Of a stretch of DNA of 64,000 bases, positions 631 through 62,062 are shown piece after piece (the first letter of the stretch is position 1; each line of letters starts with the position of its first letter). A program made the position numbers and the translations under genes. Below the pieces are notes generated by a model. The model worked only from the letters and a program-made list of their open reading frames with translations, was not told the DNA's origin and did no database searches. The stretch comes from Octopus vulgaris (lineage: Eukaryota), in assembly GCA_951406725.2 (NCBI GenBank), contig OX597835.1, forward strand, positions 39,680,001 through 39,744,000. Direction: 5' to 3'.

Positions 631-1245
631 TATACAAGTAATTCTCAACTGGAGCCCATATCAGACTTTCGATGGTCCATGCATGCAGAATAGTAAACTG
701 GGCATCTTACAGGTCTAATGAAATAAATTTTGCTTTCGATGTACTTATCGCAAGAAACTGCCAGGCTTCTCCCGCTAACCTTTTACATACTTCAACCTAT
801 ACAATTATTGTATGAAAAACAAAATGGGAATTTTGAAAGGAGTATCTATAAAACTAAATTTTAGACCAGGAAAAGCTCCGAGGAGTTCACCAGAATAAGA
901 TACTAATCAAAGGAGACCCATAAGGGGGGAAAATGCTTGAGAAAAACTGATGTATACGGAAGTACAGGATCCATTGTTTAAAGGTGTATATGTGTGTGTG
1001 TGGAGAACGAGACAGACAGACAGAGACAAAGAGATACAGAGATAGAGAGAAGGAGAGAAAGCGAGTTGTTGAGTTGGATAATAAATATTTTTATTTATTA
1101 TTATTTTTTTTTATTTTTGGCTATATAGGTCTGCTTAATCCATATTAAATCTCAAAAATCATCAGGTATACCAAACTCGGGTCAGTAAACCTTGTATATA
1201 AGAGGATCACTGGAACAACAACTTCTGAACCAAAGAAAATCGAGT

Positions 1246-1618
1246 TCTTTTACTCTTTTACTTGTTTCAGTCATTTGACTGTGGGCATGCTGGAGCACCG
1301 CCTTTAGTCGAGCAAATCGACTCCGGGACTTATTCTTTGTAAGCCTAGTACTTATTCTATCCGTCGCTGTTGCCGGACCGCTAGGTTACGGCGACGTAAA
1401 CACACCGGCATCGGTAGTCAAATGATGTTGGGGGACAAACACAGACACACAAACACACACACTTCTTTCAGTTTCCGTCTACCAAATCCACTCAGAATGC
1501 TTTGGTCTGCCCGAGGCTATAGTAGAAGACACTTGCCCAAGGTGCCATGCAGTGGGACTGAACCCAGAACCATGTGGTTGGTAAACAAGCTACTTACCAC
1601 ACAGCCACTCTTACGCCT
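1246..1618 (-). mobile_element. SINE family A, full length, lacking internal (TA)n
   Basis: Minus strand: A-box tggctgtgtgg, B-box ggttcagtccc, CORE-like ccttgggcaagt, tail (gtaaaaga)n. Confidence 0.88.
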
Positions 1619-2600
1619 AGTTGTATATTATTTTAACAAGAAACATTATTTAAATTGACGACACACATCACGCAGATATAAGTAACGATGACAGTATATA
1701 TGCATACACAGTAGGGACATACAAAAAAAAACTGCAACAATTAAAACAAATACAGCTATAGAAATTCATACGAGAAAAATTTAAAAACAAAAAGATTTAT
1801 ACCGTAGTTCAAGTTTTTACGGTATGGTCGTATCAATACACTCTCTTTAAGATAGCGTGTTAGCACTAGCACACATTTAAAATACATCATCCGGGTCTAC
1901 AATTGAAACTGCTAATTAATGAAGTCTCCACATGTTAAGCAAACACGAACACCCACACAACAAAAAGATGCACACACACACACATACATATGTATGTATG
2001 TGTATATGTGTGTGAATGTGTACTCTCGTATTTGTGTGTGTGTATGTGTGTGTGTGATGACGCCATGTCATCAACTCTTAAAGCTCAACGTGACTTTAGG
2101 GGTCATCTTAGATAGCGCCACCACCCTTTAATTGCCGGCTCCCTCTCCTAATTGAATAATAAAGTTAAACTTCTCACTTGGTCTTTTACACTCCTTTGCT
2201 CCCTTCTCCCCCAACGCTCGCCTGTCTTACCCCTCAAACACACACACATATATATACACACACTTATACACACACTTATACTCGTAGGCACGCACACGCA
2301 AACTCCCACATTGTTCCACCACTCCGAGAGATGAAAAAGATCCTCCCTTCCGAAAACGGCGACACCACCACCACTACTACCACCACCACCATCACCACCG
2401 CAAATACTACTACTACTGCTACTACGGCTGCTGCTGCTGTTGTGTCTAGGCAAACAATTATTGTAGCCAGAATTGTTTCCTCCCCTCTTTTAAAGGAATA
2501 AAGGAGATGCCAACCCGCCCCATTCTTCCGTAAAATATGACTCTCCATCGCTCTACATCCCCAACTCTAACCACATCACTGTTTATCTCTCGGACGCGCC

Positions 2601-2637
<37 letters not shown>

Positions 2638-2644
2638 TCTATAA

Positions 2645-3374
2645 TTTACTCTTTTACTTGTTTCAGTCATTTGACTGCGGCCATGCTGGAGCACCACCTT
2701 TTAGTCGAGCAAATCGACCAGGACGTATTCTTTGTAAGCCCAGTACTTATCCTATCGGTCTCTTTTGCCGAACCGCTAAGTAACGGGGACATAAACACAC
2801 CAGCATCGGTTGTCAAGCAATGCTAGGGGGGCAAACACAGACACACAAACAAACACACGCATATATATATATATATTTATATATATATATACATATATAC
2901 GACAGGCTTCTTTCAGTTTCCGTCCACCAAATCCACTCAGAAGGCTTTGGTCGGCCCGAGGCTATAGTAGAAGACACTTGCCCAAGGTGCCACGCAGTGG
3001 GACTGAACCCAGAAGCATGTGGTTGGTAAACAAGCTACTTACCACACAGCCACTCCTGCGCCAAGCCTACTACTTATTTTATCGGTCTCTTTTGCCGAAG
3101 CGCTAAGTTACGGCGACGTAAACACACCAGCATCGGTTGTCAAGTGATGGTGGGGTGGACAATACAGACACACAAACACTTACACACACATGTATATATA
3201 TATATATACAAATAGACGACGGGCTTCCTTCAGTTTCCGTCAACCAAATCCACTCACAAGGCTTTGGTCGGCCCGAGGCTATAGTAGTAGAAGACACTTG
3301 CCCAAGGTGCCACGCCGTGGGAATGAACGCAGAACCATGCGGTTGGCAAGCAAGCTACCTACCACACAGCCACT
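2645..3374 (-). mobile_element. Two tandem SINE family A copies (2645-3062 full; 3066-3374 lacking 3' tail)
   Basis: Same head, core and tail motifs as 1246-1618, with internal (TA)n. Confidence 0.85.
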
Positions 3375-3954
3375 TAGGAAAATTTTTCTAAGTTTAGTCA
3401 TTATTCATTTAATCAGTGATTCTGAGTGTTTGTGTTTACGGTTTTTTCACAGCGTCTGAAAAACGGAAGCATGAAACACAAAAATAACGACGGGGTTTCC
3501 TCCGATTAAAAAATTAAAAAATTGGAAAAAAACCGCGTCGTGTGGGAAGGAGGAGGAGTTCTTTAATATGATCTAAGACGTGACAAAGAATATACTACAA
3601 AAAAAGCTAAAACCCATACACATGCATGCAGTATTATCAAAAGCACACATAGATACGCAGCGACAGTCAGACCTAATAAATATCGCTCACAGACTACAAA
3701 CCGCGTCCATAAAATCCCTATCTCTTAACTTCTTTGGTGAGAAGAGCAGCGTCCCCTAATAAACGGTTAAAATCACCATCCCTGAATTGTGAGGTGATGT
3801 AAGTGATGGGGAAGGGGAAGGTAGGGAGGGGGGGTAGTCGTTGATGGGTGAAGTTAAAAGTGTAAAGGATAAGGAAGGAAAGAAGTGAAGAGAAAGAAGG
3901 AATGAAGAACAGAAGTTTATTCTCCTGGTTTTAAAGAAATAAAACCCGATGTCA

Positions 3955-4500
3955 CTGTTTCTTACTGGTACTCCGTCGGTTGCGACGATCAGGGTTCCAT
4001 CCAGTTGGTCCGATCAACGGAACGGCCTGCTCGTGAAATTAACGTGCAAGCGGCGGGAGCACTCCACGAACACTTGTCCACTTAGCGTCGTTCTCGGAGA
4101 AATTCAGCGTGACACAGAGGGGACAAACAAGGACAGAGAAACGGTCTAAGTCGATTATATTGACTCCAGTGCGCAACTGGTACTTATTTAATCGACCCCG
4201 AAAGGATGAAAGGCAAAGTCGACCTCGGCGGAATTTGAACTCAGAACGTAGCGGCAGACGAAATACCTATTTCTTTACTACCCACAAGGGGCTAAACACA
4301 GAGAGGACAAACAAGTACAGACAAACGGATTAAGTCGATTATACCGACCCTAGTGCGTAACTGGTACTTATTTAATCGACCGCGAAAGGATGAAAGGCAA
4401 AGTCGACCTCGGCGAAATTTGAACTCAGGACGTAGCGGCAGACGAAATACCTCTAAGCATTTCGTCCGGCGTGCAAACGATTCTGCCACCTCACCGCCTT
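3955..4500 (-). mobile_element. Composite SINE: B1 + headless B1 + family C tail
   Basis: B head at 4500, junction gaaata|ggtatttcg at 4268/4267; second unit switches near 4110-4125 to the family C 3' sequence seen at 5215-5375. Confidence 0.8.
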
Positions 4501-4988
4501 TCTCTCTGGTATTTGTATAGAAAAATTACTTCATCGATAAATAACTCCTCATCGTAGATCAAATTTGTAAATAAATCGTTGTGTGATTTCGACAAGTGAC
4601 TGGACGCCATACTGTTGTTCTCATTATCGATTTCATTAACCGATGTTTGACCCGATAAACGTTTTATTTAATCCACAATCACCCTCATTGTTACTAAGTT
4701 ATTAAAAAAAAAACAAAATGTGTGAAAACATTTGTTTGGACATACGAAATCTGGCTAAGCTTGGCTAATTGAAGAATATCAAAGGAAATTGCAAAACCAC
4801 TTAGAGGGGATCGAAAAACACGAACCATGCTAATAGACACTCAATAAACGATACCAATCAATAAAATCACGTGGATTGGGTTGAACACAAAGATTACGGG
4901 CATAAAACTAAGTATAGTGTATATGTACACAAAAAACTTATTATAAAGGGAAACAAAAACCTTTTATTCATGTTTTATTATATAATCC

Positions 4989-5379
4989 GTGGAGGCGCAA
5001 TGGCCCAGTGGTTAGGGCAGCGGACTCGCGGTCATAGGATCGCGGTTTCGATTCCCAGACCGGGCGTTGTGAGTGTTTATTGAGCGAAAACACCTAAAGC
5101 TCCACGAGGCTCCGGCAGGGGATGGTGGTGATCCCTGCTGTACTCTTTCACCACAACTTTCTCTCACTCTTACTTCCTGTTTCTGTTGTACCTGTATTTC
5201 AAAGGGCCGGCCTTGTCACTCTCTGTGTCACGCTGAATATCCCCGAGAACTACGTTAAGGGTACACGTGTCTGTGGAGTGCTCAGCCACTTACACGTTAA
5301 TTTCACGAGCAGGCTGTTCCGTTGATTCGGATCAACCGGAACCCTCATCGTCGTAACCGACGGAGTGCTAGAAGAGAAG
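4989..5379 (+). mobile_element. SINE family C (tRNA-Arg-like head), full length with 12-bp TSD
   Basis: A-box tggcccagtgg, B-box gtttcgattcc; TSD attatataatcc at 4977-4988 and 5380-5391. Confidence 0.9.
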
Positions 5380-7875: not shown

Positions 7876-7878
<3 letters not shown>

Positions 7879-7885
7879 TAATATA

Positions 7886-8200
7886 TATTTCTTTACTACC
7901 CACAAGGGGCTAAACATAAAGGGGACAAACAAGGACAGACAAAGGGATTAAGTCGATTACATCGACCCCAGTGCGAAAATGGTACTTTATTTATCGACCC
8001 CGTAAGGATGAAAGGCAAATAATCCATTCTATTAAAGGCACAAGACCAGAAATTTGAGGGAGGAGCATAGCCGATGACATCGACTGCAATATTTGACTGG
8101 TATTTTATTTGATCAACCGTGAAAGTATGAATGTCCTTTCCGGGATTTCAACCAATGACGCAACGCATTTTGTCTGACGCTCCACCAATTCTACCACCGC
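7886..8200 (-). mobile_element. SINE B1 3' part plus adjacent decayed B copy
   Basis: tttctttactacccacaaggggctaaac tail and gaccccg.aaggatgaaaggcaaa core. Confidence 0.75.
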
Positions 8201-10761: not shown

Positions 10762-11629
10762 GTATATATGTATGTACGTATGGATGTATGAATATATTAC
10801 ATAGAAATGTATATTGTATATATATTTGTCTCGTGTGTGTGCGTTTCCCGCCTTATCTTCATTGTTGGCGGCCATTTTTACAAGAAAAATTTATCACAGT
10901 AGAAGGGAAAGATATAAAGGGAAAAGAAATGAAAGCAGAAAGAAGAAAAAAAAAGGAAAGGATAAGGTTGTGCAGGAGGGTGGTTGGAAGGTAGTATAAG
11001 TAACATGACCCCCATCGTATTTCCCTGTGTGTCTCCGGACCGATTAAGCTGTCATTACACCGTCTTACGACGGTGACCCCTCTATCATTATCTCCCTGTT
11101 TAAAATAGTGTACGAAGCTGTGGAGGAAGGAGGTGGCTCTTTACTTTCTTAGTTACTAACGTACTGAAGGGGATTGCTGTGGTGGAGGGGAGAGAAACAG
11201 AAAGTTGGGTTGGTGCGGCCTGGTGGAGGGCTGGGTGAGCATTAATGTCGCTACACCCGTCACCAATCTCTATTCAATGAGGCGACAACGAAGTCCAATG
11301 CTAAAATATTCTGCGCACCTCCACACACACTTGAAGTCAATGGTCGTCGTCGTTGTTGGTGGTGTTGTTAAGCTAGCGAGGTAACTTCTACCTAGTAGAT
11401 CGAGCGACCCGCCTGCTAGAAATAGCAGCCACACCTTATCTTTTATCTTTTACTTGTTTCAGTTAGTGGAGTGGGGTCATGCTGGGGCACCGCTTTAAAG
11501 AGTTTTAGTTGAACAAATCGACCGCAGTATTTATTTTAAATCTGCCGAACAGCGAAGTTACGGGGATATAATAAAAACCATGCCGAATGTCAAGCAGTGA
11601 CGCATTGGTCGGCCCGGTGCTATAATATA

Positions 11630-11925
11630 TTTATTTATTACCCACAAGGGGCTAAACACAGAGGGGACAAACAAGGACAGACAAACAGATTAGGTCTATT
11701 ACATTGACCCCAGTGCGTAACTGGTACTTAATTTATCGACCCCGAAAGGATGAAAGGCAAAGTCGACCTCGGCAGAATTTGAACCCAGAACGTGACGGCG
11801 TGCGTAACTGGTACTTAATTTATCGACCCCGAAAGGATGAAAGGCAAAGTCGACCTCGGCGGAATTTGAACCCAGAACGTGACGGCAGACGAAAAACAGC
11901 TACGCATTTCGCCCGGCGTGCTAAG
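11630..11925 (-). mobile_element. SINE B1 with ~85-bp internal tandem duplication
   Basis: gtgcgtaactggtac...ccagaacgtgacggc occurs twice (about 11714-11799 and 11800-11886). Confidence 0.85.
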
Positions 11926-21334: not shown

Positions 21335-22110
21335 ATAATTCTTTCTGCTATAGGCACAAAATTTGGGGCAGGGGGTACCTCAGTACTCGACTGGTACCTA
21401 TTTTATCGACTCCGAAAGAATGAAAGGCAAACCCTAACCCTTGCGGCATTTGGACTCAGAACATAAAAACAGACGAAATACCTATTTCTTTACTACCCAC
21501 AAGGAGCTAAAAACACAGAGAGGACAAACAAGGACAGACAAACGGATTAAGTCGATTATATCGACCCCCGTGCGTAACTGGTACTTATTCAATCGACCCC
21601 GAAAGGATGAAAGGCAAAGTCGACATCGGCGGAATTTGAACTCAGAACGTAACGGCAGACGAAATGCCGCTAAACATTTCGTCCGGCGTGCTAACAGTTC
21701 TGCCAGCTCGCTCCTTTAATAATCCGTTCTACTGGAAGCACAAGGCCCCAAATTTGGAAGAAAGGATTTTAGTCGATTACATCGACCCCTGTGCGTAACT
21801 GGTACTTAATTAATCGACCCCGAAAGGATGAAAAGCAAAGACGACTTCAGAGGAATTTGAACTCAGAACATAGCGACGATTCTGCTCGCTCGCTGCGTCA
21901 ATCGCCGCCTTAATAATAACAATAATAATCCTTTATACTATAGGCACAATGGCCGAAATTACATCGACCCCCAACAGTTCAACTGGTACTTATTTTATCA
22001 CTCCTGAAAGGATGAAAGCCAAAACTGACCCCGGCGGCGTCTCAACTTAGCACGTTAAATCGAAAGAAATGCTACTATGCACTTTTTCCGAAAAGTTTTA
22101 TGTCAGCTCA
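21335..22110 (-). mobile_element. Head-to-tail cluster of four SINE B units, including B1 joined to a headless B2 at 21483/21482
   Basis: Repeated B core and (ATT)n-tailed variants. Confidence 0.85.
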
Positions 22111-35123: not shown

Positions 35124-35490
35124 GTGTGTGTGTGTGTGTATTTGTGTGTCTGTGTTTGTCCCCCCAACATCGCTTGACAACCGATGCTGGTATGTTTACG
35201 TCCCCGTTACTTAGCGGTTCGGCAAAAGAGACCGATAGAATAAGTACTAGGCTTACAAAGAATAAGTCCTGGGGTCGATTTGTTCGACTAAAAGGCGGTG
35301 CTCCAGCATGGCCGCAGTCAAATGGCTGAAACAAGTAAAAAAGAGAGAGAAAGGGGCTAAACACAAAGGGGACAATCAAGGACAGACAAACGGATTAAGT
35401 CGGTTATATAGACCCTAGTGCGTAACTAGTGCTTAATTTATCGACCCCGAAAGGATGGAAGGCAAAGTCGACCTCGGAGGAATTTGAAGA
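34924..35490 (-). mobile_element. 5'-truncated SINE B1 with 13-bp TSD, interrupted by a plus-strand SINE A (about 34937-35350)
   Basis: TSD actaatctatacc at 34911-34923 and 35491-35503; B1 tail split by the A copy. Confidence 0.88.
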
Positions 35491-35794
35491 ACTAATCTAT
35501 ACCATAATCCCGCTCCAAACCATAACACACATCTAAAGCAATTCACGTGACTAAAACGCTATACAAGAAGTAACCCATGTGGCGTGCCATGGTGATCAGC
35601 TATCGTAAGGGGAGGTAATTCTTTTTAGATCAATGGTTCTCAACCTGGGGGTTCATATAAGATTTTGTGGGGGGTCATGCAAGGAAAATAGTAAATAGGG
35701 AATCCACAGCAGTATTTTAAGGGTTCACGAAAAAAATTGCTTCAAATATATTTATTGCAAAACCGATAGGTTCCTTTCTCTGTTTTATATAGAA

Positions 35795-36289: not shown

Positions 36290-36776
36290 ACCCTTTGGCA
36301 TTTAAAACAGCCAGATCTGGCCTAAATCTTCCACCCGTTTCATGTTCAAACCAGCCAGATCAGGTCTCTCACACCTACCCTCCAATGTCATGCCATTCAA
36401 TGACAAACGATCACGTCACCGTAACCTTGAAGCTATTTAAACCAGAAAGATCTGGCCTAAATATTCCACCCGTTTCATGTTCAAACCAGCCAGATCGGGT
36501 CTCTCACATCTACTCTCCAATGTCATTCCATTCAATGTCAAACGATCACGTCACCATAACCTTGAAGCTATTTAAACCAGAAAGATCTGACCTAAAGATT
36601 CTACCTGTTTTATATTCAATCCAACTGGATCTAGCCTCTCACACCTACCCTACAATGTCATTCATTCTAAGACCAAACAATGACATCATCGTATTCTTTA
36701 AAGCTACGAGGTAGTAGTGCATGATTAAATTAAAATAAATAAGCATTACATTTGACAGAATTATCTGAATGTTGAA
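36290..36776. mobile_element. Putative piggyBac-like MITE (family H) with about three 135-bp tandem units
   Basis: Starts aaccctttggcatt; agatct anchors at 36313, 36448 and 36583; right end homologous to 5869-6030. Confidence 0.6.
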
Positions 36777-37854: not shown

Positions 37855-38750
37855 ATTCAGAGTATGTGTACAGCATTTCCAAATTTTGAAATTTCAACAA
37901 ACATACTTGTACTACAGGGATCTGTTCTTGTACCCGCTTTTTACAACCTACTCTTCTTATGCGATAGGCTTAATTTTGAGTTATATGGTTAACCCCGTCG
38001 CCTGGTCTAATAATGCTATTTAGCTTTTTAGTCCACTTTTTGCGAGCACCATCTGGGCATTTGGGCCAGGTTTCTGGTTTGAGGATAACAGCATACTTCC
38101 ATATTCCAAACCCTACCTCAGAAGCGATGTCAAGGGTTATGTACAGTGCCTCTTTCCTTGACTAAAAGATATAGCCTACCATTACACACAAAAACATAAA
38201 CGTACCAAACACACACATACACACACAAGAAAAATACTTGCCACTGCAATGGAAGACATAGTAGAGAAGAGAAAATGATGTTGAAGTATAGAGAAATCTC
38301 AGACCAACAGAGAGAAACGACACCAAATGTGTATAAAATCCAATATGGACTACACCAGTGATTCTCAAGTGGGGTCCGTATGATCCTCGGGAGTCCAAAT
38401 AGCATTTTTTAATTAAAATTTATCTGCAATAAATTGGCCATAATTCTACAATACACAAAATATTTTAATTTTTTCACACAATTCTCAATAATCTTTTGTA
38501 CTATAGGCACAAGTCCTGAAATTTTGATGGGAGGGGATAAGACGAATTCATCGACCCCAATGCGACCCCGAAATGAAAGGCAAAGTCGACCTCGGCGGAA
38601 TTCGAACTCAGAACGTAAAGATGGACGAAATGCCGATAAGCATTTTGCCTGGCGTTACAATTCCTAATAATATTTAACTATAAAAAGTATTTTCCAAAGA
38701 AAGATAGGTATTCATGGCTAATATAAATTAAATAATTAAAAATAAATACC

Positions 38751-38983
38751 TACTTCTTTATTACCCACAAGGGGCGAAACACAGAGAGGACAAACAAGGA
38801 CAGACAAACGGATTAAGTCGATTATATCGACCTCAGTGCGTAACAGGTACTTAATTTATCGACCCCGAAAGGATGAAAGGCAAAGTCGACCTCGGCGGAA
38901 TTTGAACTCAGAACGTAACGGCAGTCGAAATACCGCTAAGCATTTCGCCCGGCGTGCTAACCCTTCTGCCAGCACGCCGCCTT
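38751..38983 (-). mobile_element. SINE B1, full length
   Basis: A-box tggcagaagggttag, B-box gagttcaaattcc, Meta/MESC-like core gcctttcatcctttcggggtcgataaattaagtacc, B1 tail. Confidence 0.9.
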
Positions 38984-43919: not shown

Positions 43920-44544
43920 ATAATCTTTTCTACTAAAGGCACAAAGCCTGAAATTTTCAGACAGAATGGTACTTAACTTTTCGACCCCGAAATGATGAAA
44001 GGCAAAGTCGACTTTGGCGGAATTTGAACTTAGAACGTAAGGATGGACAAAATGCCGCTAAGTATTTTTGCCCGGCGTGCTAACGATTCTGCCAGCTCGC
44101 TGTATGAACAGCAACAACAACAACAACAACAACAATTATAATAATGCTGATTTCAAACTTTTGCCACAAGTGCAGCTTGGGGGAGGGCATTAAATAGATT
44201 ATATCGACTCCAATGCGTAACTGGTACCTGTTTAATCGACCCCGAAAGGATGAAAGGAGAGGTCGACCTCAGCGGAATTTGAACGCAGAACATAGCGGTA
44301 GACGAAATACCTATTTCTTTACTGCCCACAAGGGGCTAAACACAGAGTGGACAAACGAGGACAGACAAACGGATTAAGTCGATTACATCGACCCCAGTGC
44401 GTAACTGGTACTTAATTTATCGACCCCGAGAGGATGAAAGGCTAAGTTGACCTCGGCGGAATTTGAGCACTGAACGTAGCGCCAGACGAAATACTGCTAA
44501 GCATTTCGCCCGGCGTGCTAACGATTCAGCCAGCTCGCCGCCTT

Positions 44545-45513: not shown

Positions 45514-45969
45514 TTTCGAAAAATAGTCACGTTTTTTTAGAGATCCACTTAACAGATATTTTTTTTCCGGAATGAAGTATTTGAAATATGTAAACGTTCA
45601 CCCCATTACCCTGAAATGGGAAGAGATTCATTCTTAAATATGTATTGTTGTGTCTGCTTATTTCTACAAAATATCCACTTTGTTTCTGGTTATTAGTGGT
45701 GCAGTATGACTATTTCTGGAGTAACAGGAAGAGACGGTCGTCTATTTTTGAAAATGCAAAATCAGAGTTTTGAAATATCTAATTACAGTTATATACACGC
45801 GATTATAAATAGAGATAATTATGTTTTGAGAAGCACAAAATTAAAAAACAAAAATGAAGTGAAAATGCAGATTTAAATGACAATAACAAAACACCATTTA
45901 CAACAATAATTCGTAATTTACTAAGAGAAATAATATTCAACACATTCGACAGTTCCTGAAAGAAGTATA

Positions 45970-46331
<362 letters not shown>

Positions 46332-48815: not shown

Positions 48816-49136
48816 GGAGGCGGGTAGCTTAGTGGTTAGGGTGCTGGACTCATAATTGTAAGATTGTGGTTTCGATTCCTGGACGGGACGACGCGTTGTG
48901 TTCTTGAGCAAAACACTTCATTTCACGTTACTCCAGTCCACTCCGTTGGCAAAAGTGAGTAATCCTGCAATGGACTCACCATCATGATTATCTGTTTCTT
49001 TATTACCCACAAGGGGCTAAATATAGAGAGGACAAACAAGGACAGACAAACGGATTAAGTCGAGTACATCGACCCCAGTGCGTAACTGGTACTTAATTTA
49101 TCGACCCCGAAAAGGTGAAAGGCAAAGTCGACCTCG
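48816..49136. mobile_element. SINE E 5' part (+) followed by SINE B1 3' part (-)
   Basis: E head/core 48816-48976; B1 tail/core 48995-49136. Confidence 0.8.
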
Positions 49137-49678
49137 TCATCGTCATCGTCATCATCATCATCATCATCACCGTCGTCGTCACCGTCGTCGTTGTCGTCAT
49201 CTTTGTCATTGCCCCACGCCCACAAGCAGAGGAGATTATAATAAAATTCATACCACTTTCAAATAATTGGTAAATAATAATTACAACAACGAATGCAAAA
49301 TAAATAAATAAATAAAAGAAAAGTAAATAAAAGAAAAGTAAAAATAAGAAAAATAAATTATGCAAATTAAATTATTTCCTCGATAATCTCTTCGCTAATT
49401 AACCGGTGGCATGGTTAATATTTTAAAGTTTGGCACGAAATGCCAGTCTAGCTTTCAAACCCACACATCACTCATACACATACATATATATATTAGTATG
49501 TATAATAGTTTAAGATGTGTGTGTGTGTGTGTTATATAATAGAAAATATATGTAACATAATATATATATATATATTTAAAGTTAATCCAAACATGAAAGC
49601 ACAAAAAAACACAACAACACGAGGACGTGGAACAAATATAGTGTTATTGGACGCTCAGGAAGGAAGGAAAGAAGGAGG

Positions 49679-49713
49679 GTTTAACGTTTCGAGCGGATTT
49701 CTTCGTCAGAAAC
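49679..49713 (-). ncRNA. Minimal type-I hammerhead motif (canonical core, damaged stem II) in element 49577-49790
   Basis: Minus strand GUUU-CUGACGA-A-GAAAUCCGCUC-GAAA-CGUU-AAAC; stem I GUUU/AAAC, palindromic ACGU stem III. Confidence 0.65.
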
Positions 49714-49851
49714 ATAGGAAAAGGAAAAATCCAAAAAAGGGAAGACGGAGGAAAAAAAATCGCCAACGTACCCACGTGGTCACATTTCGAATATATTATA
49801 TATATATGTATACTTACATACATACATATATACATACATACATACATACAT

Positions 49852-49902
<51 letters not shown>

Positions 49903-49913
49903 CATATATATAT

Positions 49914-49950
<37 letters not shown>

Positions 49951-50462
49951 GTTAATCCAAACAAGAAAGCAAAAAAAAAAACACAACAACGCGAGGACGT
50001 GGAACAAATATAGTATTGATCAGAGAAACTAAAAGAGAGGAGGGTTGCATGAAAAGTTAGAACCCCACCGGGTCATAAATCTATTACATGCCCCCCTTTG
50101 TAAGCGTGGATTTTAAGCAAAAGTTAGCCTAAGAAACCAGCTCACGACCCACAAACATTAAAGATTCTAATCTGGTCATCTCCAGTGACATGACGGACGA
50201 ACAAAATTTTTTAAAAACGAAACGAAAAACAAATGCAGCTAATAATGATTGTCTTTAATATGCGAATGAGGTCTGAAACTTGTTGAGTAGGGGTTAGACG
50301 ATCGTATCGATTCTTGTGATTGACTGGTACTTTATTGTATCGACCCTGGAAGGATGAAAGGCAAAGTTGACGATGACGGTATACTTAAAAGTGCCGGGGC
50401 TAGGGGGAAGGTGAAAAATAGAAAAACATGGGGAGGGAATAGGAGAGGGAAGGAAAGGCCGA

Positions 50463-50578
50463 AAGAAGGAGGAGGAGGAGGAGGAGGAGAAGAAGAAGAA
50501 GAAGAAGAAGAAGAAGAAGAAGAAGAAGAAGAAGAAGAAGAAGAAGAAGAAGAAGAAGAAGAAGAAGAAGAAGAAGAA
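50463..50578. repeat. (GGA)n/(GAA)n microsatellite
   Basis: Direct reading. Confidence 0.95.
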
Positions 50579-51254
50579 TTTGGGGTTTTCCTTTTGGATT
50601 TTATTTCTTCGAATATTTTACAGACATTGAATGAATGCGCATTCTAGTTTATTTTTTTATTGCTATTTATAAAGTTTTTTTTTATAAATGTTTTTTTTTC
50701 TTCATATAATTGGGAGGAAGGTGGTGGATTGCAGAATTGGTAGGGGTGTTAGATAAAGAAACTACCCCCTGGCATCATTTACTTTCATCAATTTACGTTC
50801 AGCGCTCAAATCCCACCCAGGTTGTTTCTAATGTATGTCTGTCGATAAATAATGTAAACGTCAGCTAGCGGTGTCAATTTAATCGACAATTTGTGATTTT
50901 ATTTTATTTTATTTTAGATTGCAATTTATTTTTTTACTTCTTTTTTTTTTCTCACTCTGGTATTTCCTGGCTGTGACAACATCTTACCACCCTATATTTT
51001 ATGCTAACTTAAGTCACTTTTAACCCTGGGAATGTTCTTCAGAACAAGTTTCAGCCAAGTAACAAAGCTTTTTTTTATTTCGCCATACTTTAAATATTTC
51101 AGGCTCCTTTGTGTATTGTAAAACCTTTTGTGTTTCAAATACATTTTTTTTTTGTTAGGAATTATTAACTAATTCCTACCATTTTGTAAATGTTCATATA
51201 TAGACATGTAGAACATATTATTGAAACCTCATATCTATCTACCTATCTCCCCCT

Positions 51255-51338
<84 letters not shown>

Positions 51339-51436
51339 TAATCCAAACATGAAAGCACAAAAAAAAACACAACAACGTGAGGACGTGGAACAAATACAGT
51401 ATTATTGGACGCCCAGGAAAGAAGGAAAGAAGGAGG

Positions 51437-51471
51437 ATTTAACGTTTCGAGCGGAGCTCTTCGTCGGAAAC
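51437..51471 (-). ncRNA. Minimal type-I hammerhead motif (intact stem II, U4 changed to C) in element 51334-51548
   Basis: Minus strand GUUU-CCGACGA-A-GAGC(UCC)GCUC-GAAA-CGUU-AAAU; paralogue of 49679-49713. Confidence 0.65.
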
Positions 51472-52358
51472 ATAGGAGAAGGAAAGATCCAGAGAAGGGA
51501 AGACAGAGGGAAAAAAATCGCCAACGGTACACACGCAGTCACATTTCCGAAGTATATAAAGCTACAAATCATAACATATAGTTATTTGGTAAAAAAAAAC
51601 TTTAAAAAAAAGGGGGACGAAGGGTGCTCATGGGAATCGAACCGATATTTGCTGTAAACATGAGAGACTTTCTGCCATTGAACCAAAGCAATTCTTCCCG
51701 TTTGTGACTCTATTTTAGAAGCTTTGTTCTCACCAGCCAGAATTGTCTTGTTGGCATCATCAGAATTTAGAAACTTTTTTAACACAAGATTTACACGTTG
51801 TTGTTTATAGCTTTATCTACTTCGAGCTCTACAGTCGAAAACGAATTACTTCACGTCTCTAGTAAAACACACACACACACACACACATGTATGTTACTAG
51901 AGTGATGTCTGTTGAAAATAAACCTGGTATCAGCAGCGGGTCAAGCGATTAGTTCATGACCGCTTATCCCTCCACGTCGCTACGTTGCTCCAGTTGGTCA
52001 GGTCTCTTTGATCAAATACATTCCAACCGTGACCATCTCAGCTTTCTCCTTCCTCTTTTTCGTGTCTCTTGTATTTAGGGACGACATTATTTTATGGGTT
52101 GCTCCCAATATTTAAAAAAAAACATCCCAGTGTGAGAGGAAAGAGTTTTAGCTGTTATTTCTTGACAGATCAAGCAATTACCTTTCAATAGCGCGGCCCG
52201 TCAGGTCAACCACAATTCAGATATATAATCTATGAAATCTAGGATCAAAGACAATCTAACCGTAACAAACTCATCTTATTTCATGAATAATAAATATATT
52301 AGGAACTATGTTTTCTAAAGAATCCGACCTCGCCCTATACATACACTTACGCATATTA

Positions 52359-55108: not shown

Positions 55109-55554
55109 TCTGCTCAATACCACAGATTTGCTTGTCAGTTGTTTGACCATAACCAGATGAGCATGTCCCTTAGTGGCTGACGACATGTGCATCTCTGATC
55201 CTGAGCAGAAGTAATGTGGAAGCTTCATAGCCATGTGTTGAGAGGGATTCTTTAGGGTTTGAATAATTCACTTCTGGAAGCATGGGAGTTTCGTTCAACA
55301 TCCTTAAACAACCCTTATTCAGGGACCTTTTGAGCGAGATGGGTTACTCAACCAGAAGAAAATTCTAACTGGGCCCCACCTGCAAGGTCATGTACTGTTT
55401 ATCTTGACATGAGGTCACCATGTCACGCATATATGGTTGTGACGCATGTGCCTGGTGTACCCTTATCAGACGGGTAGTCATGATGGGTATACTGGGCTTA
55501 GTATATTTTACCCCAGTATCACTTTGATGGCATGCACTGCTCTCTCACTCAATA

Positions 55555-55605
<51 letters not shown>

Positions 55606-55916
55606 GAGAGGGATTCTTTGGTGTTTGAATAATTCACCTCTGGAAACATGGGTGGTTCTTTCAACATCCTTAAACAACCCTTATTCAGGGACCTTTTGAG
55701 CGAGATGGGCTACTCAACCTGAAGAAAATTCTAACTGGGCCCCACCTGCAAGGTCATGTGCTGTTTATCTTGATATGAGATCACCATGTCGTGCACATAT
55801 GGTTGTGATGCATGTGCCTGGTGTACCCTTATCAGACGGGTAGTCATGATGGGTATATTGGGCTTCGTATATTTTACCCCAGTGTCACTTTGATGGCATG
55901 AACTGCTCTCTCACTC
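54614..55916 (+). mobile_element. Three head-to-tail family D copies separated by (AAT)n
   Basis: Copies 54614-55075, 55108-55550 and 55606-55916 share the 3' end and differ in 5' start. Confidence 0.9.
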
Positions 55917-55920
55917 AATA

Positions 55921-55977
<57 letters not shown>

Positions 55978-56669: not shown

Positions 56670-57020
56670 TACATCCACATCTACACAGAATCAAAGGAGC
56701 TGCAAAGGGACAGGATGTGTTGCCTTTTTGTTGTTGTTGTTGTTGTTGTTGATGATGCTGTCGTTGTTACAGTTTCAACCCCAGGTCAACCCTCCATTAT
56801 GAAGAGCTTATGAATTTATGATCAAAGACATTCCAGCTGTGACTTTCCCAGTTTTGCCCCCCCCCCTTATGTAAGAGGAACCTTGGGGGCCAAATTATCC
56901 CCCCCATGCCCCCATCCCTTTTTACTGCTATTTTTCCCCCCAAAGACATTTGGATTCATATTATCTAATGGGTCCACGCCCATCCTTATTTTTTAATACG
57001 GTGGCTGGTATTTGCTGAGG

Positions 57021-57722
57021 GAAATTTAGCTGCTATTTCTCGTACCCAGAGGTTCCACCCTCGGTCAAGATAACGTTGTGAGGGAGATTTGGTTGCTATT
57101 TCTTGAACGTACAGGTCCTATTCTTCGACAGGATAATGTTGCTGAGAGAGATTTGGCTGCTATTTCTTGTACCTAGAGGGCTCCACCTTCGGTCAAGATA
57201 ATGTTGTGAGGGAGATTTGGTTGCTATTTCTTGAACGTACAGGTCCTATTCTTCGACAGGATAATGTTGCTGAGAGAGATTTGGCTGCTATTTCTCGTAC
57301 CTAGAGGGCTCCACTCTCGGTCAGGTTAATATTACTGAGGGAGATTTGGTTGCTATTTCTTGCACGTACATGCCCTATTCTTCGACAGGATAATGTTGCT
57401 GAGAGAGATTTGGCTGCTATTTCTCGTACCCAGAGGTTCCACCTTCGGTCAAGATAACGTTGTGAGGGAGATTTGGTTGCTATTTCTTGCACGTACAGGC
57501 CCTATTCTTCGACAGGATAATGTTGCTGAGAGATTTGGCTGCTATTTCTCGTACCCAGAGGTTCCACCCTCGGTCAAGATAATGTTGTGAGGGAGATTTG
57601 GTTGCTATTTCTTGCACGTACATGCCCTATTCTTCGACAGGATAATGTTGCTGAGAGAAATTTGGCTGCTATTTCTCGTACCCAGAGGGCTCCACCCTCG
57701 GTCAAGTTAATATTACTGAGGG
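57021..57722. repeat. ~64-bp minisatellite, 11 units alternating A/B, inside a dispersed family G repeat
   Basis: gagatttggYtgctatttct anchors at about 57021, 57084, 57148, 57212, 57276, 57341, 57405, 57468, 57530, 57593, 57657. Confidence 0.92.
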
Positions 57723-58462
57723 AGATGTTGCTACTGTTTCTAACAAGTAGGTCAGGATAATGATGAAGGAGATTTGGCTGCTATTTCTCGCATGGCTCAG
57801 GATAATGTTGATAGGTGGTTGTAGTGTTTAACCCCAGGTCAATCCAGATTGATCAGTGTTTCATTAAAGTCGTTCCAGCCACGACATCCCTTCCAATTTT
57901 CCTATCCCAGCGTTATCGAACTCACTGTTTTCTGCGACGCAAGGACGCGATTTGATGGAGATTTAGCAGCTATTTCTAGCATGGCGAACAACCACCAGCC
58001 ATATACAGGTTCGCCTTTAGCTGGGTTATAGAGAAAAATGATGATGGCGGCGGTCGTGGTGGTGGTGGTGGTGACGAGGACAGTAGCGGCGGTGGTGGGG
58101 ATGAAAGGGGTTGGGGGGTATGTGGTATGTTTGGGTGGAGTAAGGATCAGGGGAGGGGGAGGTGTGCGCTCGCAGGGTGTGAAAGGGTTCAGCGTTTGTT
58201 TGTCAATCGACGGAGCTGAAATAATTCGATTAGGCCGGTGATGGTGGTGGCGACGACAGTGGCGACGGTGGTGGTGGTGGTGGTGGTTGTGGTGGTGGTT
58301 GGTGGTGGTGGTGGTGGTGCTAGCGGCAGGCAGTGGGAGGTGAAGGGGTGGGGTGGGGGTGGATAGAGAGGCATCGGAGCAGCAACCGGGAACTCGTTCT
58401 TATACTGTAATTCTTTACAAAACAAACACACCACCCACATCACCACCACCACCACCACCACC

Positions 58463-61629: not shown

Positions 61630-62062
61630 GGGCTGGTTACCCGGTTTCCGGGGCCTATAAGGGATCGTGAGCACAACATTATCATCTGAATGAGATGCCA
61701 GTCTGTTGCAAGGTAACTTATTTACAGCCGAGTGGACTGAGGCAACATGAAATAAAGTATACCTATTTCTTTACTACCCACAAGGGGCTAAACACAGAGG
61801 GGACAAACAAGGACAGACAAACGGATTAAGTCGATTATATCGCTCCCAGTGCGTAACTGGTACTTAATTTATCGACCCCGAAAGGATGAAAGGCAAAGTC
61901 GACCTCGGCGGAATTTGAACTCAGAACATAAAGACAGACGAAATACGGCTACGCATTTCGCCCGGCGTGCTCCCACGAACACAACGCACTGCCTGGTCCG
62001 AGGATTGAAACCACTAGCCTGCGATCGTGAGCGCAACACACGAACCACTAGGTTCATGCGCC
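61630..62062 (-). mobile_element. SINE E copy with nested SINE B1 (61764-61971)
   Basis: E sequence continues on both sides of B1 when compared with 12690-12925. Confidence 0.8.

What the first reader, a model, noticed from the sequence alone, without database searches (positions are those of the whole stretch)
49577..51548. Paired ~210-bp non-coding elements in (TA)n arrays carrying a minimal hammerhead ribozyme
Seen: two paralogous elements (49577-49790, 51334-51548) plus a partial direct repeat at 49950-50020, each abutting (TA)n. Their minus-strand consensus is GUUU-CUGACGA-A-GAGC(UCC)GCUC-GAAA-CGUU-AAAC. Each copy has a different lesion, so the reconstructed ancestor has a complete core, stem I and stem II. 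Known: minimal type-I hammerheads with a loopless palindromic stem III (here ACGU), thought to cleave as dimers, occur in Penelope-like element pLTRs. Inference: a self-cleaving, non-autonomous PLE-derived or retrozyme-like family living in TA microsatellites.
Basis: partly seen in the sequence, partly recalled or inferred. Interest (0 to 1): 0.85.

Follow-up and report, generated by a model that had tools for sequence, protein, structure and literature searches.

The report
Penelope retrotransposon tails with drifting hammerhead
These short repeats are the truncated tail ends of a Penelope-like jumping gene that has thousands of copies in this genome; they carry a hammerhead ribozyme motif, and its youngest, still-intact versions have a core change predicted to weaken self-cutting, which suggests cutting may matter little for jumping.

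Summary
The three repeats are real: A 49580-49787, B 51336-51546 (90% identical) and partial C 49950-50017, all on the minus strand beside (TA)n. They are not a special pair and not a non-autonomous family. They are 5'-truncated 3' ends (pseudo-LTRs) of a Penelope-like retrotransposon with Neptune-type architecture. At least 13,376 copies exist. 18 of 20 loci found with its GIY-YIG sequence carry the same 210 bp downstream, and young full-length elements (5.9-6.2 kb, two pseudo-LTRs) include intact 949-aa RT-endonuclease frames. The minimal type-I hammerhead is real and of a known kind (2,306 exact canonical copies). But copy B's CCGACGA (U4C) is no private lesion: it is the majority state (6,053 exact copies) and is fixed, with a stem I mismatch, in the youngest subfamily (at least 934 copies, about 2% divergent). 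Short head-to-tail arrays are rare (10 junctions), and 5' ends do not pile up at the predicted cut. They cluster about 80 nt upstream of the core, on a 7-bp hairpin that likely stalls reverse transcription. Cleavage itself was not testable. Known kind; the altered but conserved ribozyme is the noteworthy part.

The parts
49580..49787 (-). Copy A: 5'-truncated 3' end (pseudo-LTR) of a Neptune-type Penelope-like element; canonical-core (CUGA) type
   Evidence: 90% to the 3' end of ORF-bearing copy L059; 89.8% to copy B
49679..49713 (-). Minimal type-I hammerhead motif of copy A: canonical core, stem I 4 bp, stem II broken by two changes; predicted cut between 49683 and 49682
49791..49949 (.). 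(TA)n/(TACA)n microsatellite holding the 5' end of A and the 3' end of C; inferred insertion target
   Evidence: TRF array 49791-49950; sequence
49950..50017 (-). Copy C: last 68 nt of the element, truncated downstream of the hammerhead; likely an independent insertion
   Evidence: 98.5% to L129, main CCGA subfamily
51285..51335 (.). (TA)25 tract at the fixed 3' end of copy B; inferred insertion target
51336..51546 (-). Copy B: 5'-truncated 3' end of the same element; main CCGA (U4C) subfamily
   Evidence: 93% to the L059 3' end, 95% to L118; 40 scored genome hits at 94-100%
51437..51471 (-). Hammerhead motif of copy B: U4C core, intact stems I and II, palindromic ACGU; predicted cut between 51441 and 51440

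Best explanation
The three repeats are 5'-truncated 3' ends of an autonomous Penelope-like retrotransposon with Neptune-type architecture, likely inserted one by one into (TA)n tracts by the element's own endonuclease and reverse transcriptase, and they carry its minimal hammerhead motif, whose self-cleavage is untested and predicted to be weak in the U4C majority. Shown: physical linkage of the 210 bp to RT and GIY-YIG coding sequence, full-length elements with two pseudo-LTRs, a fixed 3' end, ragged 5' ends, and the subfamily series of core states. Inferred mechanism: (1) a full-length RNA is made from a partial tandem; (2) the GIY-YIG domain nicks (TA)n and RT starts at a fixed internal site about 100 nt downstream of the predicted cut; (3) in the older and main subfamilies RT usually stalls at a 7-bp hairpin 70-90 nt upstream of the core and joins to the target, giving the 210-bp copies, or jumps upstream, giving internal deletions; (4) when RT reads on for more than one unit, both ends are copied from one template. 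The template is mostly uncut or re-ligated RNA. My odds: about 0.65 that the canonical form cleaves as a dimer or with protein help, about 0.4 that the U4C forms still cleave usefully.
For: 18 of 20 loci fetched by the endonuclease DNA query have the 210-bp element 0.4-2.2 kb downstream on the same strand. L059 endonuclease passes the Pfam GIY-YIG cut-off (22.7 vs 22.6); 916 homologues, the best at 53-57% identity, carry RVT_1 and PF26215, some GIY-YIG. Nine of 9 young core pairs fetched are full-length units of 5.9-6.2 kb; 3 of 9 have an intact 949-aa ORF with YIDD, a CSRSRCNTC linker and LIYCIKCNLC..YVG. 65 of 74 non-young chr1 copies start at -99..-67 from C3 and 1 of 74 beyond -100. Six internal-deletion copies join upstream body to the 3' end at -83..-119. 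The hairpin there folds at -9.4 kcal/mol, z -2.9; the young equivalent does not (-1.1, z +0.7), and 5 of 6 young copies read past it. The two pseudo-LTRs of one element differ by 0-2 nt, between elements by 4.0 on average. At most 4 of the first 100 3'-anchored matches begin within about 6 nt of the cut (by eye). In vitro, a lizard PLE starts RT internally, its hammerhead needs the protein, and catalytic mutants do not reduce insertion (PMC11167929).
Against: RVT_1 and GIY-YIG score below Pfam cut-offs on the full 949-aa protein and on L152. Two of 20 endonuclease loci lacked the element in the stretch fetched. No compensatory change was seen inside the family (0 in a 6-row alignment); covariation comes only from sister families. 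The predicted monomer fold is an extended hairpin, not the hammerhead fold. The stall-hairpin link rests on 6 young copies plus 9 upstream pseudo-LTRs and on one chromosome's first hits; microhomology of AUGUG to the target could give the same cluster. Clade placement was not tested by phylogeny. No RNA evidence for cleavage or circles was obtained.
Confidence: 0.88

Rival explanations
1. The 210-bp form is a separately amplifying non-autonomous element (retrozyme- or SINE-like): rare tandem masters make multimeric RNA that self-cleaves as a dimer, circularises as about 219 nt and is copied by the PLE protein.
For: Head-to-tail arrays exist: a 219-nt trimer with canonical or near-canonical cores (L070) and a 215-nt tetramer (L156). 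5' ends are strongly clustered. Two internal-deletion copies share one junction (L161, L162), so deleted forms can likely be recopied. Animal non-LTR retrozymes are proposed PLE derivatives (10.64898/2026.07.22.740005).
Against: Only 10 head-to-tail junctions at 7 loci match the exact pattern against at least 13,376 copies; a small circle should often give wrapped copies. 5' ends are ragged over about 30 nt, and the same zone is used by internal deletions with five different upstream partners. Both core states also occur on ORF-bearing copies.
Confidence: 0.1
2. On the ribozyme's role: the U4C forms still cleave slowly as dimers or with help from the PLE protein, cut and re-ligate the 6-kb unit into a circle, and this explains the identical pseudo-LTRs and multi-unit tandems.
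For: All other core positions, stem II, ACGU and the NUH rule are kept (N17 is U 114, C 19, A 14, G 0 among 147 motifs in fetched loci, which were largely selected by motif). The 33-nt motif is identical between main and young subfamilies while the flanks match 27/73 and 57/95. A viroid U4C variant is weak in vitro but sufficient in vivo (PMC3088659). Pseudo-LTRs share private changes and extend 553 to over 1,100 nt upstream, as a circular template predicts (PMC4209133 Discussion).
Against: The young subfamily also has a U-U mismatch in stem I, and its C17 stabilises the competing hairpin (-8.8 vs -6.5 kcal/mol). Strand transfer between pseudo-LTRs explains identical ends without a circle. Catalytic mutants did not reduce insertion in vitro.
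Confidence: 0.4
3. The motif is a chance hammerhead look-alike in an ordinary dispersed repeat, with no ribozyme ancestry.
For: No Rfam hammerhead hit; fold z-scores of the 45-nt motif are only -0.7 to -2.1; the majority lacks CUGA.
Against: It sits in the pseudo-LTR of a PLE, where such motifs are known. 603 genome matches versus 18 control for a related spacing show covarying stems I and II. The unpaired base after A9, G10.1-C11.1 and the palindrome match the published min-HHR traits.
Confidence: 0.03

Closest known systems
Minimal hammerheads (min-HHR) of metazoan Penelope-like elements (Cervera and de la Pena 2014, PMC4209133)
   Same: Type-I topology, 4-bp stem I, unpaired base after A9, G10.1-C11.1, palindromic loopless stem III, location in the pseudo-LTR, thousands of solo motifs from truncated PLEs.
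   Different: Stem II is 4 bp (7-8 bp in the Schistosoma families). The dominant and youngest subfamilies carry an uncompensated U4C; in the sections read that paper reports a U3-A8 covariation, not U4C.
Neptune/Nematis-type EN+ PLEs (Craig et al. 2021, PMC8557442)
   Same: Single ORF, RT then CX4CxxC linker then GIY-YIG with two cysteines; microsatellite targets; partial tandems and inverted truncated copies.
   Different: Very long (1.5-2.9 kb) AC-rich 3' UTR; a strong 5'-truncation hot zone giving SINE-sized copies; clade not tested by phylogeny.
Poseidon_Ac of the green anole (Frangieh et al. 2024, PMC11167929)
   Same: Fixed 3' end downstream of the hammerhead, AT-rich targets, no sign that cut RNA is the main template.
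   Different: Different clade; there the ORF starts inside the hammerhead, here about 340 nt after the pseudo-LTR; core canonical there.
Animal non-LTR retrozymes (PMC7229834, search listing only; 10.64898/2026.07.22.740005, parts 1-2 read)
   Same: Short, non-coding, type-I hammerhead, PLE-related; a few tandem arrays.
   Different: Almost all copies are monomers that are literal 3' ends of an autonomous element; tandem arrays are under 0.1%.

Membership tests
EN+ Penelope-like element | Single ORF with RT followed by C-terminal GIY-YIG endonuclease | tested here: met
   949-aa ORF in 3 of 9 full-length copies; GIY-YIG above cut-off in L059; RVT_1 and GIY-YIG in order but below cut-off in L174; homologues with the same domains
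EN+ Penelope-like element | CCHH motif with two cysteines between GIY and YIG | tested here: met
   LIYCIKCNLC..YVG; downstream EHL..RHF histidines seen
EN+ Penelope-like element | Pseudo-LTRs from partial tandems; inverted truncated copies; 5' truncation | tested here: met
   9 of 9 young pairs; L079, L159, L162; inverted copies L050, L157
EN+ Penelope-like element | Telomerase-related RT by phylogeny | not tested
   No tree with labelled references was built
Neptune clade | CX2-5CxxC linker between RT and EN (shared with Nematis) | tested here: met
   CSRSRCNTC at residue 817; definition from PMC8557442
Neptune clade | Microsatellite insertion bias | tested here: met
   Microsatellite within 30 nt of the aligned end in 61 of 80 copies downstream and 55 of 80 upstream, lower bounds
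Neptune clade | Placement in Neptune rather than Nematis by RT phylogeny | not testable with these tools
   No clade-labelled reference sequences were returned
Minimal type-I hammerhead | Core CUGANGA ... GAAA | tested here: inconclusive
   Met in copy A and 2,306 exact copies; not met (U4C) in copy B, 6,053 exact copies and 98 of the first 100 young copies
Minimal type-I hammerhead | Stems I and II, unpaired base after A9, G10.1-C11.1, palindromic 15.2-16.2, NUH site | tested here: met
   All pairs form in B, L045, L118; A lacks two stem II pairs; young subfamily has 3 of 4 stem I pairs; N17 never G in 147 motifs
Minimal type-I hammerhead | Covariation of stems | tested here: inconclusive
   None within the family in 6 rows; present across sister families: stem I CUUU/AAAG, ACAC/GUGU, stem II GGAC/GUCC, GGCUG/CAGCC (read by eye)
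Minimal type-I hammerhead | Self-cleavage as a dimer or with protein help | not testable with these tools
   Needs an assay; only contigs of runs guessed to be RNA were available
Non-LTR retrozyme | Organised as tandem repeats of hammerhead units | tested here: not met
   10 junctions at 7 loci versus at least 13,376 copies
Non-LTR retrozyme | No protein-coding capacity in the family | tested here: not met
   Same sequence is the 3' end of ORF-bearing elements
Non-LTR retrozyme | Accumulates as small circular RNA | not testable with these tools
   No raw RNA reads were offered

The most novel reading that the evidence does not exclude
A recently active Penelope-like lineage has turned its hammerhead from a ribozyme into a non-catalytic signal: U4C, then C17 and a stem I mismatch, were fixed in turn and favour a plain hairpin, while stem II and GAAACGU stayed unchanged as the flanks diverged, because the retrotransposon protein recognises them. 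This would be genomic evidence that PLE hammerheads are kept for structure, not cleavage.
Probability: 0.3. Interest if true: 0.65.

Novelty: new variant of a known kind. Interest (0 to 1): 0.42.

Why it matters
Why PLEs carry hammerheads is open: one paper calls the function unclear (PMC8557442), and catalytic mutants did not reduce insertion in vitro (PMC11167929). This family offers a natural allelic series in one genome, from canonical core to U4C to U4C plus a weakened stem I, with intact ORFs at the derived end, so the question becomes directly testable. It also shows how a PLE can make over 13,000 SINE-sized copies through one truncation hot zone, copies a canonical hammerhead descriptor would mostly miss. 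The window's own copies are ordinary decayed members.

Tried and rejected
Rfam scans of the window region and of the young 3' UTR found only microsatellite-driven miRNA hits, no ribozyme. CpG decay as the source of CUGA copies: rejected for most, since CCA decay is 3 of 100 against 27 CTG and CTG copies carry linked diagnostics; more diverged relatives have U4, so U4 is likely ancestral. A and B as two ends of one element: no ORF between them or in the window. A PLE ORF near a long copy in L069 belongs to another family, on the opposite strand. RNA: no RNA holder listed on record; four runs guessed to be RNA, contigs only, cover all 27 bins and show one 56-nt skip and no back-joint; this is no evidence for or against expression, cleavage or circles. 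Two mis-spaced patterns gave 0 and 3 hits and were discarded. No tRNA in the window. Three look-ups of earlier findings returned nothing. Lunse et al. (PMC5785218) was not held.

Full report
Observation. The window is microsatellite-rich eukaryotic DNA from a 2.8-Gb assembly, G000:C22:39680001-39744000. Its repeats looked cephalopod-like to me; that is recalled and comes from no call. Copies A (49580-49787) and B (51336-51546) align at 89.8% over 215 nt and C (49950-50017) matches the last 68 nt of the minus-strand element. On the minus strand both full copies carry a type-I hammerhead-like motif with stem I GUUU/AAAY, an unpaired A after A9, stem II GAGC/GCUC and a loopless ACGU. A has the canonical CUGACGA but two broken stem II pairs; B has intact stems but CCGACGA. 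Rfam reports no hammerhead here; that Rfam lacks a minimal model is my inference.

Family size and core state. B found 1,606 first-look candidates, of which 40 were scored at 94-100%. Exact 33-nt patterns gave 2,306 canonical and 6,053 U4C matches, 0 in reversed controls. A degenerate core pattern gave 13,376 and a 3'-anchored pattern 13,125; both are lower bounds. Among the first 100 listed, I counted 70 CCG, 27 CTG and 3 CCA. So B's change is the family majority. CTG copies exceed CpG decay and carry linked diagnostics. More diverged relatives have U4, so U4 is likely ancestral.

What the element is. The 3' end is sharp and abuts (TA)n; the 5' end is ragged. Some copies continue upstream. 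Of 20 stretches fetched for such copies (19 extended, 1 tandem), several ran through 1-1.5 kb of AC-rich sequence, and L059 reached a GIY-YIG endonuclease and RT sequence. Of the 40 scored hits of the endonuclease query I fetched 20, the best after the self-hit bar one; 18 had the 210-bp element downstream on the same strand. L079, L159 and L162 show a short copy directly ahead of the element body with the same junction, a pseudo-LTR. A young subfamily has 934 matches with a core-free pattern. I fetched 9 of its same-strand core pairs: all are 5.9-6.2 kb units with two pseudo-LTRs and a fixed junction, and 3 have an intact 949-aa ORF. The protein has YIDD, a CSRSRCNTC linker and two cysteines between the GIY and YIG equivalents. 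Pfam scores on it are below cut-off, but 916 homologues carry RT and related domains. By the definitions in PMC8557442 (Introduction and passages read) this is an EN+ PLE of Neptune/Nematis architecture. No tree was built.

Subfamily series. Among 80 chr1 copies (the first 40 listed for each exact pattern), mean pairwise distances were 0.085 for old CUGA (14 copies), 0.060 for middle CUGA (18), 0.053 for main CCGA (29) and 0.020 for young CCGA (6); 13 copies outside these clusters were left out. In the first 100 young matches, 98 have CCG and 2 CTG, all have C17, and stem I has AUAC (96) or AUGC (4), leaving a U-U mismatch (by eye). Between a young and a main copy the 33-nt motif is identical while flanks match 27/73 and 57/95. 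The young group was first seen through that motif, so other young groups with changed motifs could be missed. C17 strengthens a competing hairpin. A natural U4C is known from a viroid, weak in vitro yet sufficient in vivo (PMC3088659, passages and section 8 read).

Why 210 bp. 65 of 74 non-young copies begin between -99 and -67 relative to C3, 8 begin closer and 1 further. Of 12 stretches fetched for odd upstream sequence, 5 proved internal deletions joining at -83 to -119, as does L045. A 7-bp hairpin lies at about -90 to -70 (-9.4 kcal/mol, z -2.9) and is absent from the young subfamily, in which 5 of 6 copies and all 9 upstream pseudo-LTRs extend much further. I infer an RT stall. Target microhomology or short masters are alternatives.

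Role of the ribozyme. If cut linear RNA were the usual template, copies would start at +27. At most 4 of the first 100 3'-anchored matches start within about 6 nt of that site (by eye). Pseudo-LTRs of one element share private changes (0-2 differences against a mean of 4.0 between elements) and cross the cut site, which fits either a re-ligated circle (PMC4209133; abstract, Results and Discussion read, figures and supplement not seen) or strand transfer on uncut RNA. In vitro work on a lizard PLE found internal RT initiation, protein-assisted cleavage and no loss of insertion with catalytic mutants (PMC11167929, parts 1-2 of 4 read). Head-to-tail short arrays are 10 junctions at 7 loci, so the retrozyme model (10.64898/2026.07.22.740005, parts 1-2 of 5 read) fits few copies. 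Against my reading: no covariation within the family in a 6-row test, modest fold z-scores, and no usable RNA data. Sister families do show covarying stems (603 matches against 18 control; L053).

Novelty. Minimal hammerheads in PLE pseudo-LTRs and thousands of solo motifs are known. Eight searches found no description of this family's ribozyme or of a U4C PLE hammerhead; an octopus repeat annotation (PMC13282606, passages) does not mention hammerheads. The library is limited, Repbase and Dfam could not be searched, Lunse et al. was seen only as cited in two reviews (PMC6765202, PMC6466107, passages), and unread supplements may list such variants. Verdict: a known kind of element, with an altered but conserved ribozyme in its active lineage as the point of interest.

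Noticed in passing
window 4075-4477, 7877-8029, 11619-11924, 21476-22099, 35324-35542, 38536-38960, 43958-44521, 45961-46179, 48984-49136, 61755-61973: A separate abundant SINE-like repeat with 12-16 copies in the window (families D17 and D18), some in tandem (periods 184 and 87).
   Followed up: no
window 57012-57726, 55240-55971, 36300-36667: Tandem arrays with periods 128 (64-nt subunit), 366 and 135.
   Followed up: no
window 51610-51700 (minus strand): tRNA-like stretch just upstream of copy B's 5' end; ARAGORN finds no tRNA; possibly a decayed tRNA-derived SINE.
   Followed up: partly
L152 6780-7010 and 8490-8700: A long inverted pair inside the young element's 3' UTR (duplex -213 kcal/mol) that would form double-stranded RNA; no Rfam match.
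   Followed up: partly
G000:C1:119858786-119867881: Four young cores at about 3-kb spacing with a shared stem I variant: likely a tandem of an internally deleted unit.
   Followed up: no
Genome-wide; L053; L152 1-1351; L069 about 3170-3930 (minus strand): Several other PLE-type families with canonical minimal hammerheads and different stems, and other PLE ORF fragments with a CxxxxCxxC linker.
   Followed up: partly
L161 and L162: Two unlinked copies share the same internal-deletion junction, suggesting a recopied non-autonomous derivative.
   Followed up: partly
L057 about 750-5350: A Gypsy-like LTR retrotransposon (protease, RT, RNase H, integrase frames by eye) inserted into the AC-rich UTR of a long copy.
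   Followed up: no
L179: A young full-length element with an intact ORF has the canonical U4 in both pseudo-LTRs, likely one reversion copied to both ends.
   Followed up: partly
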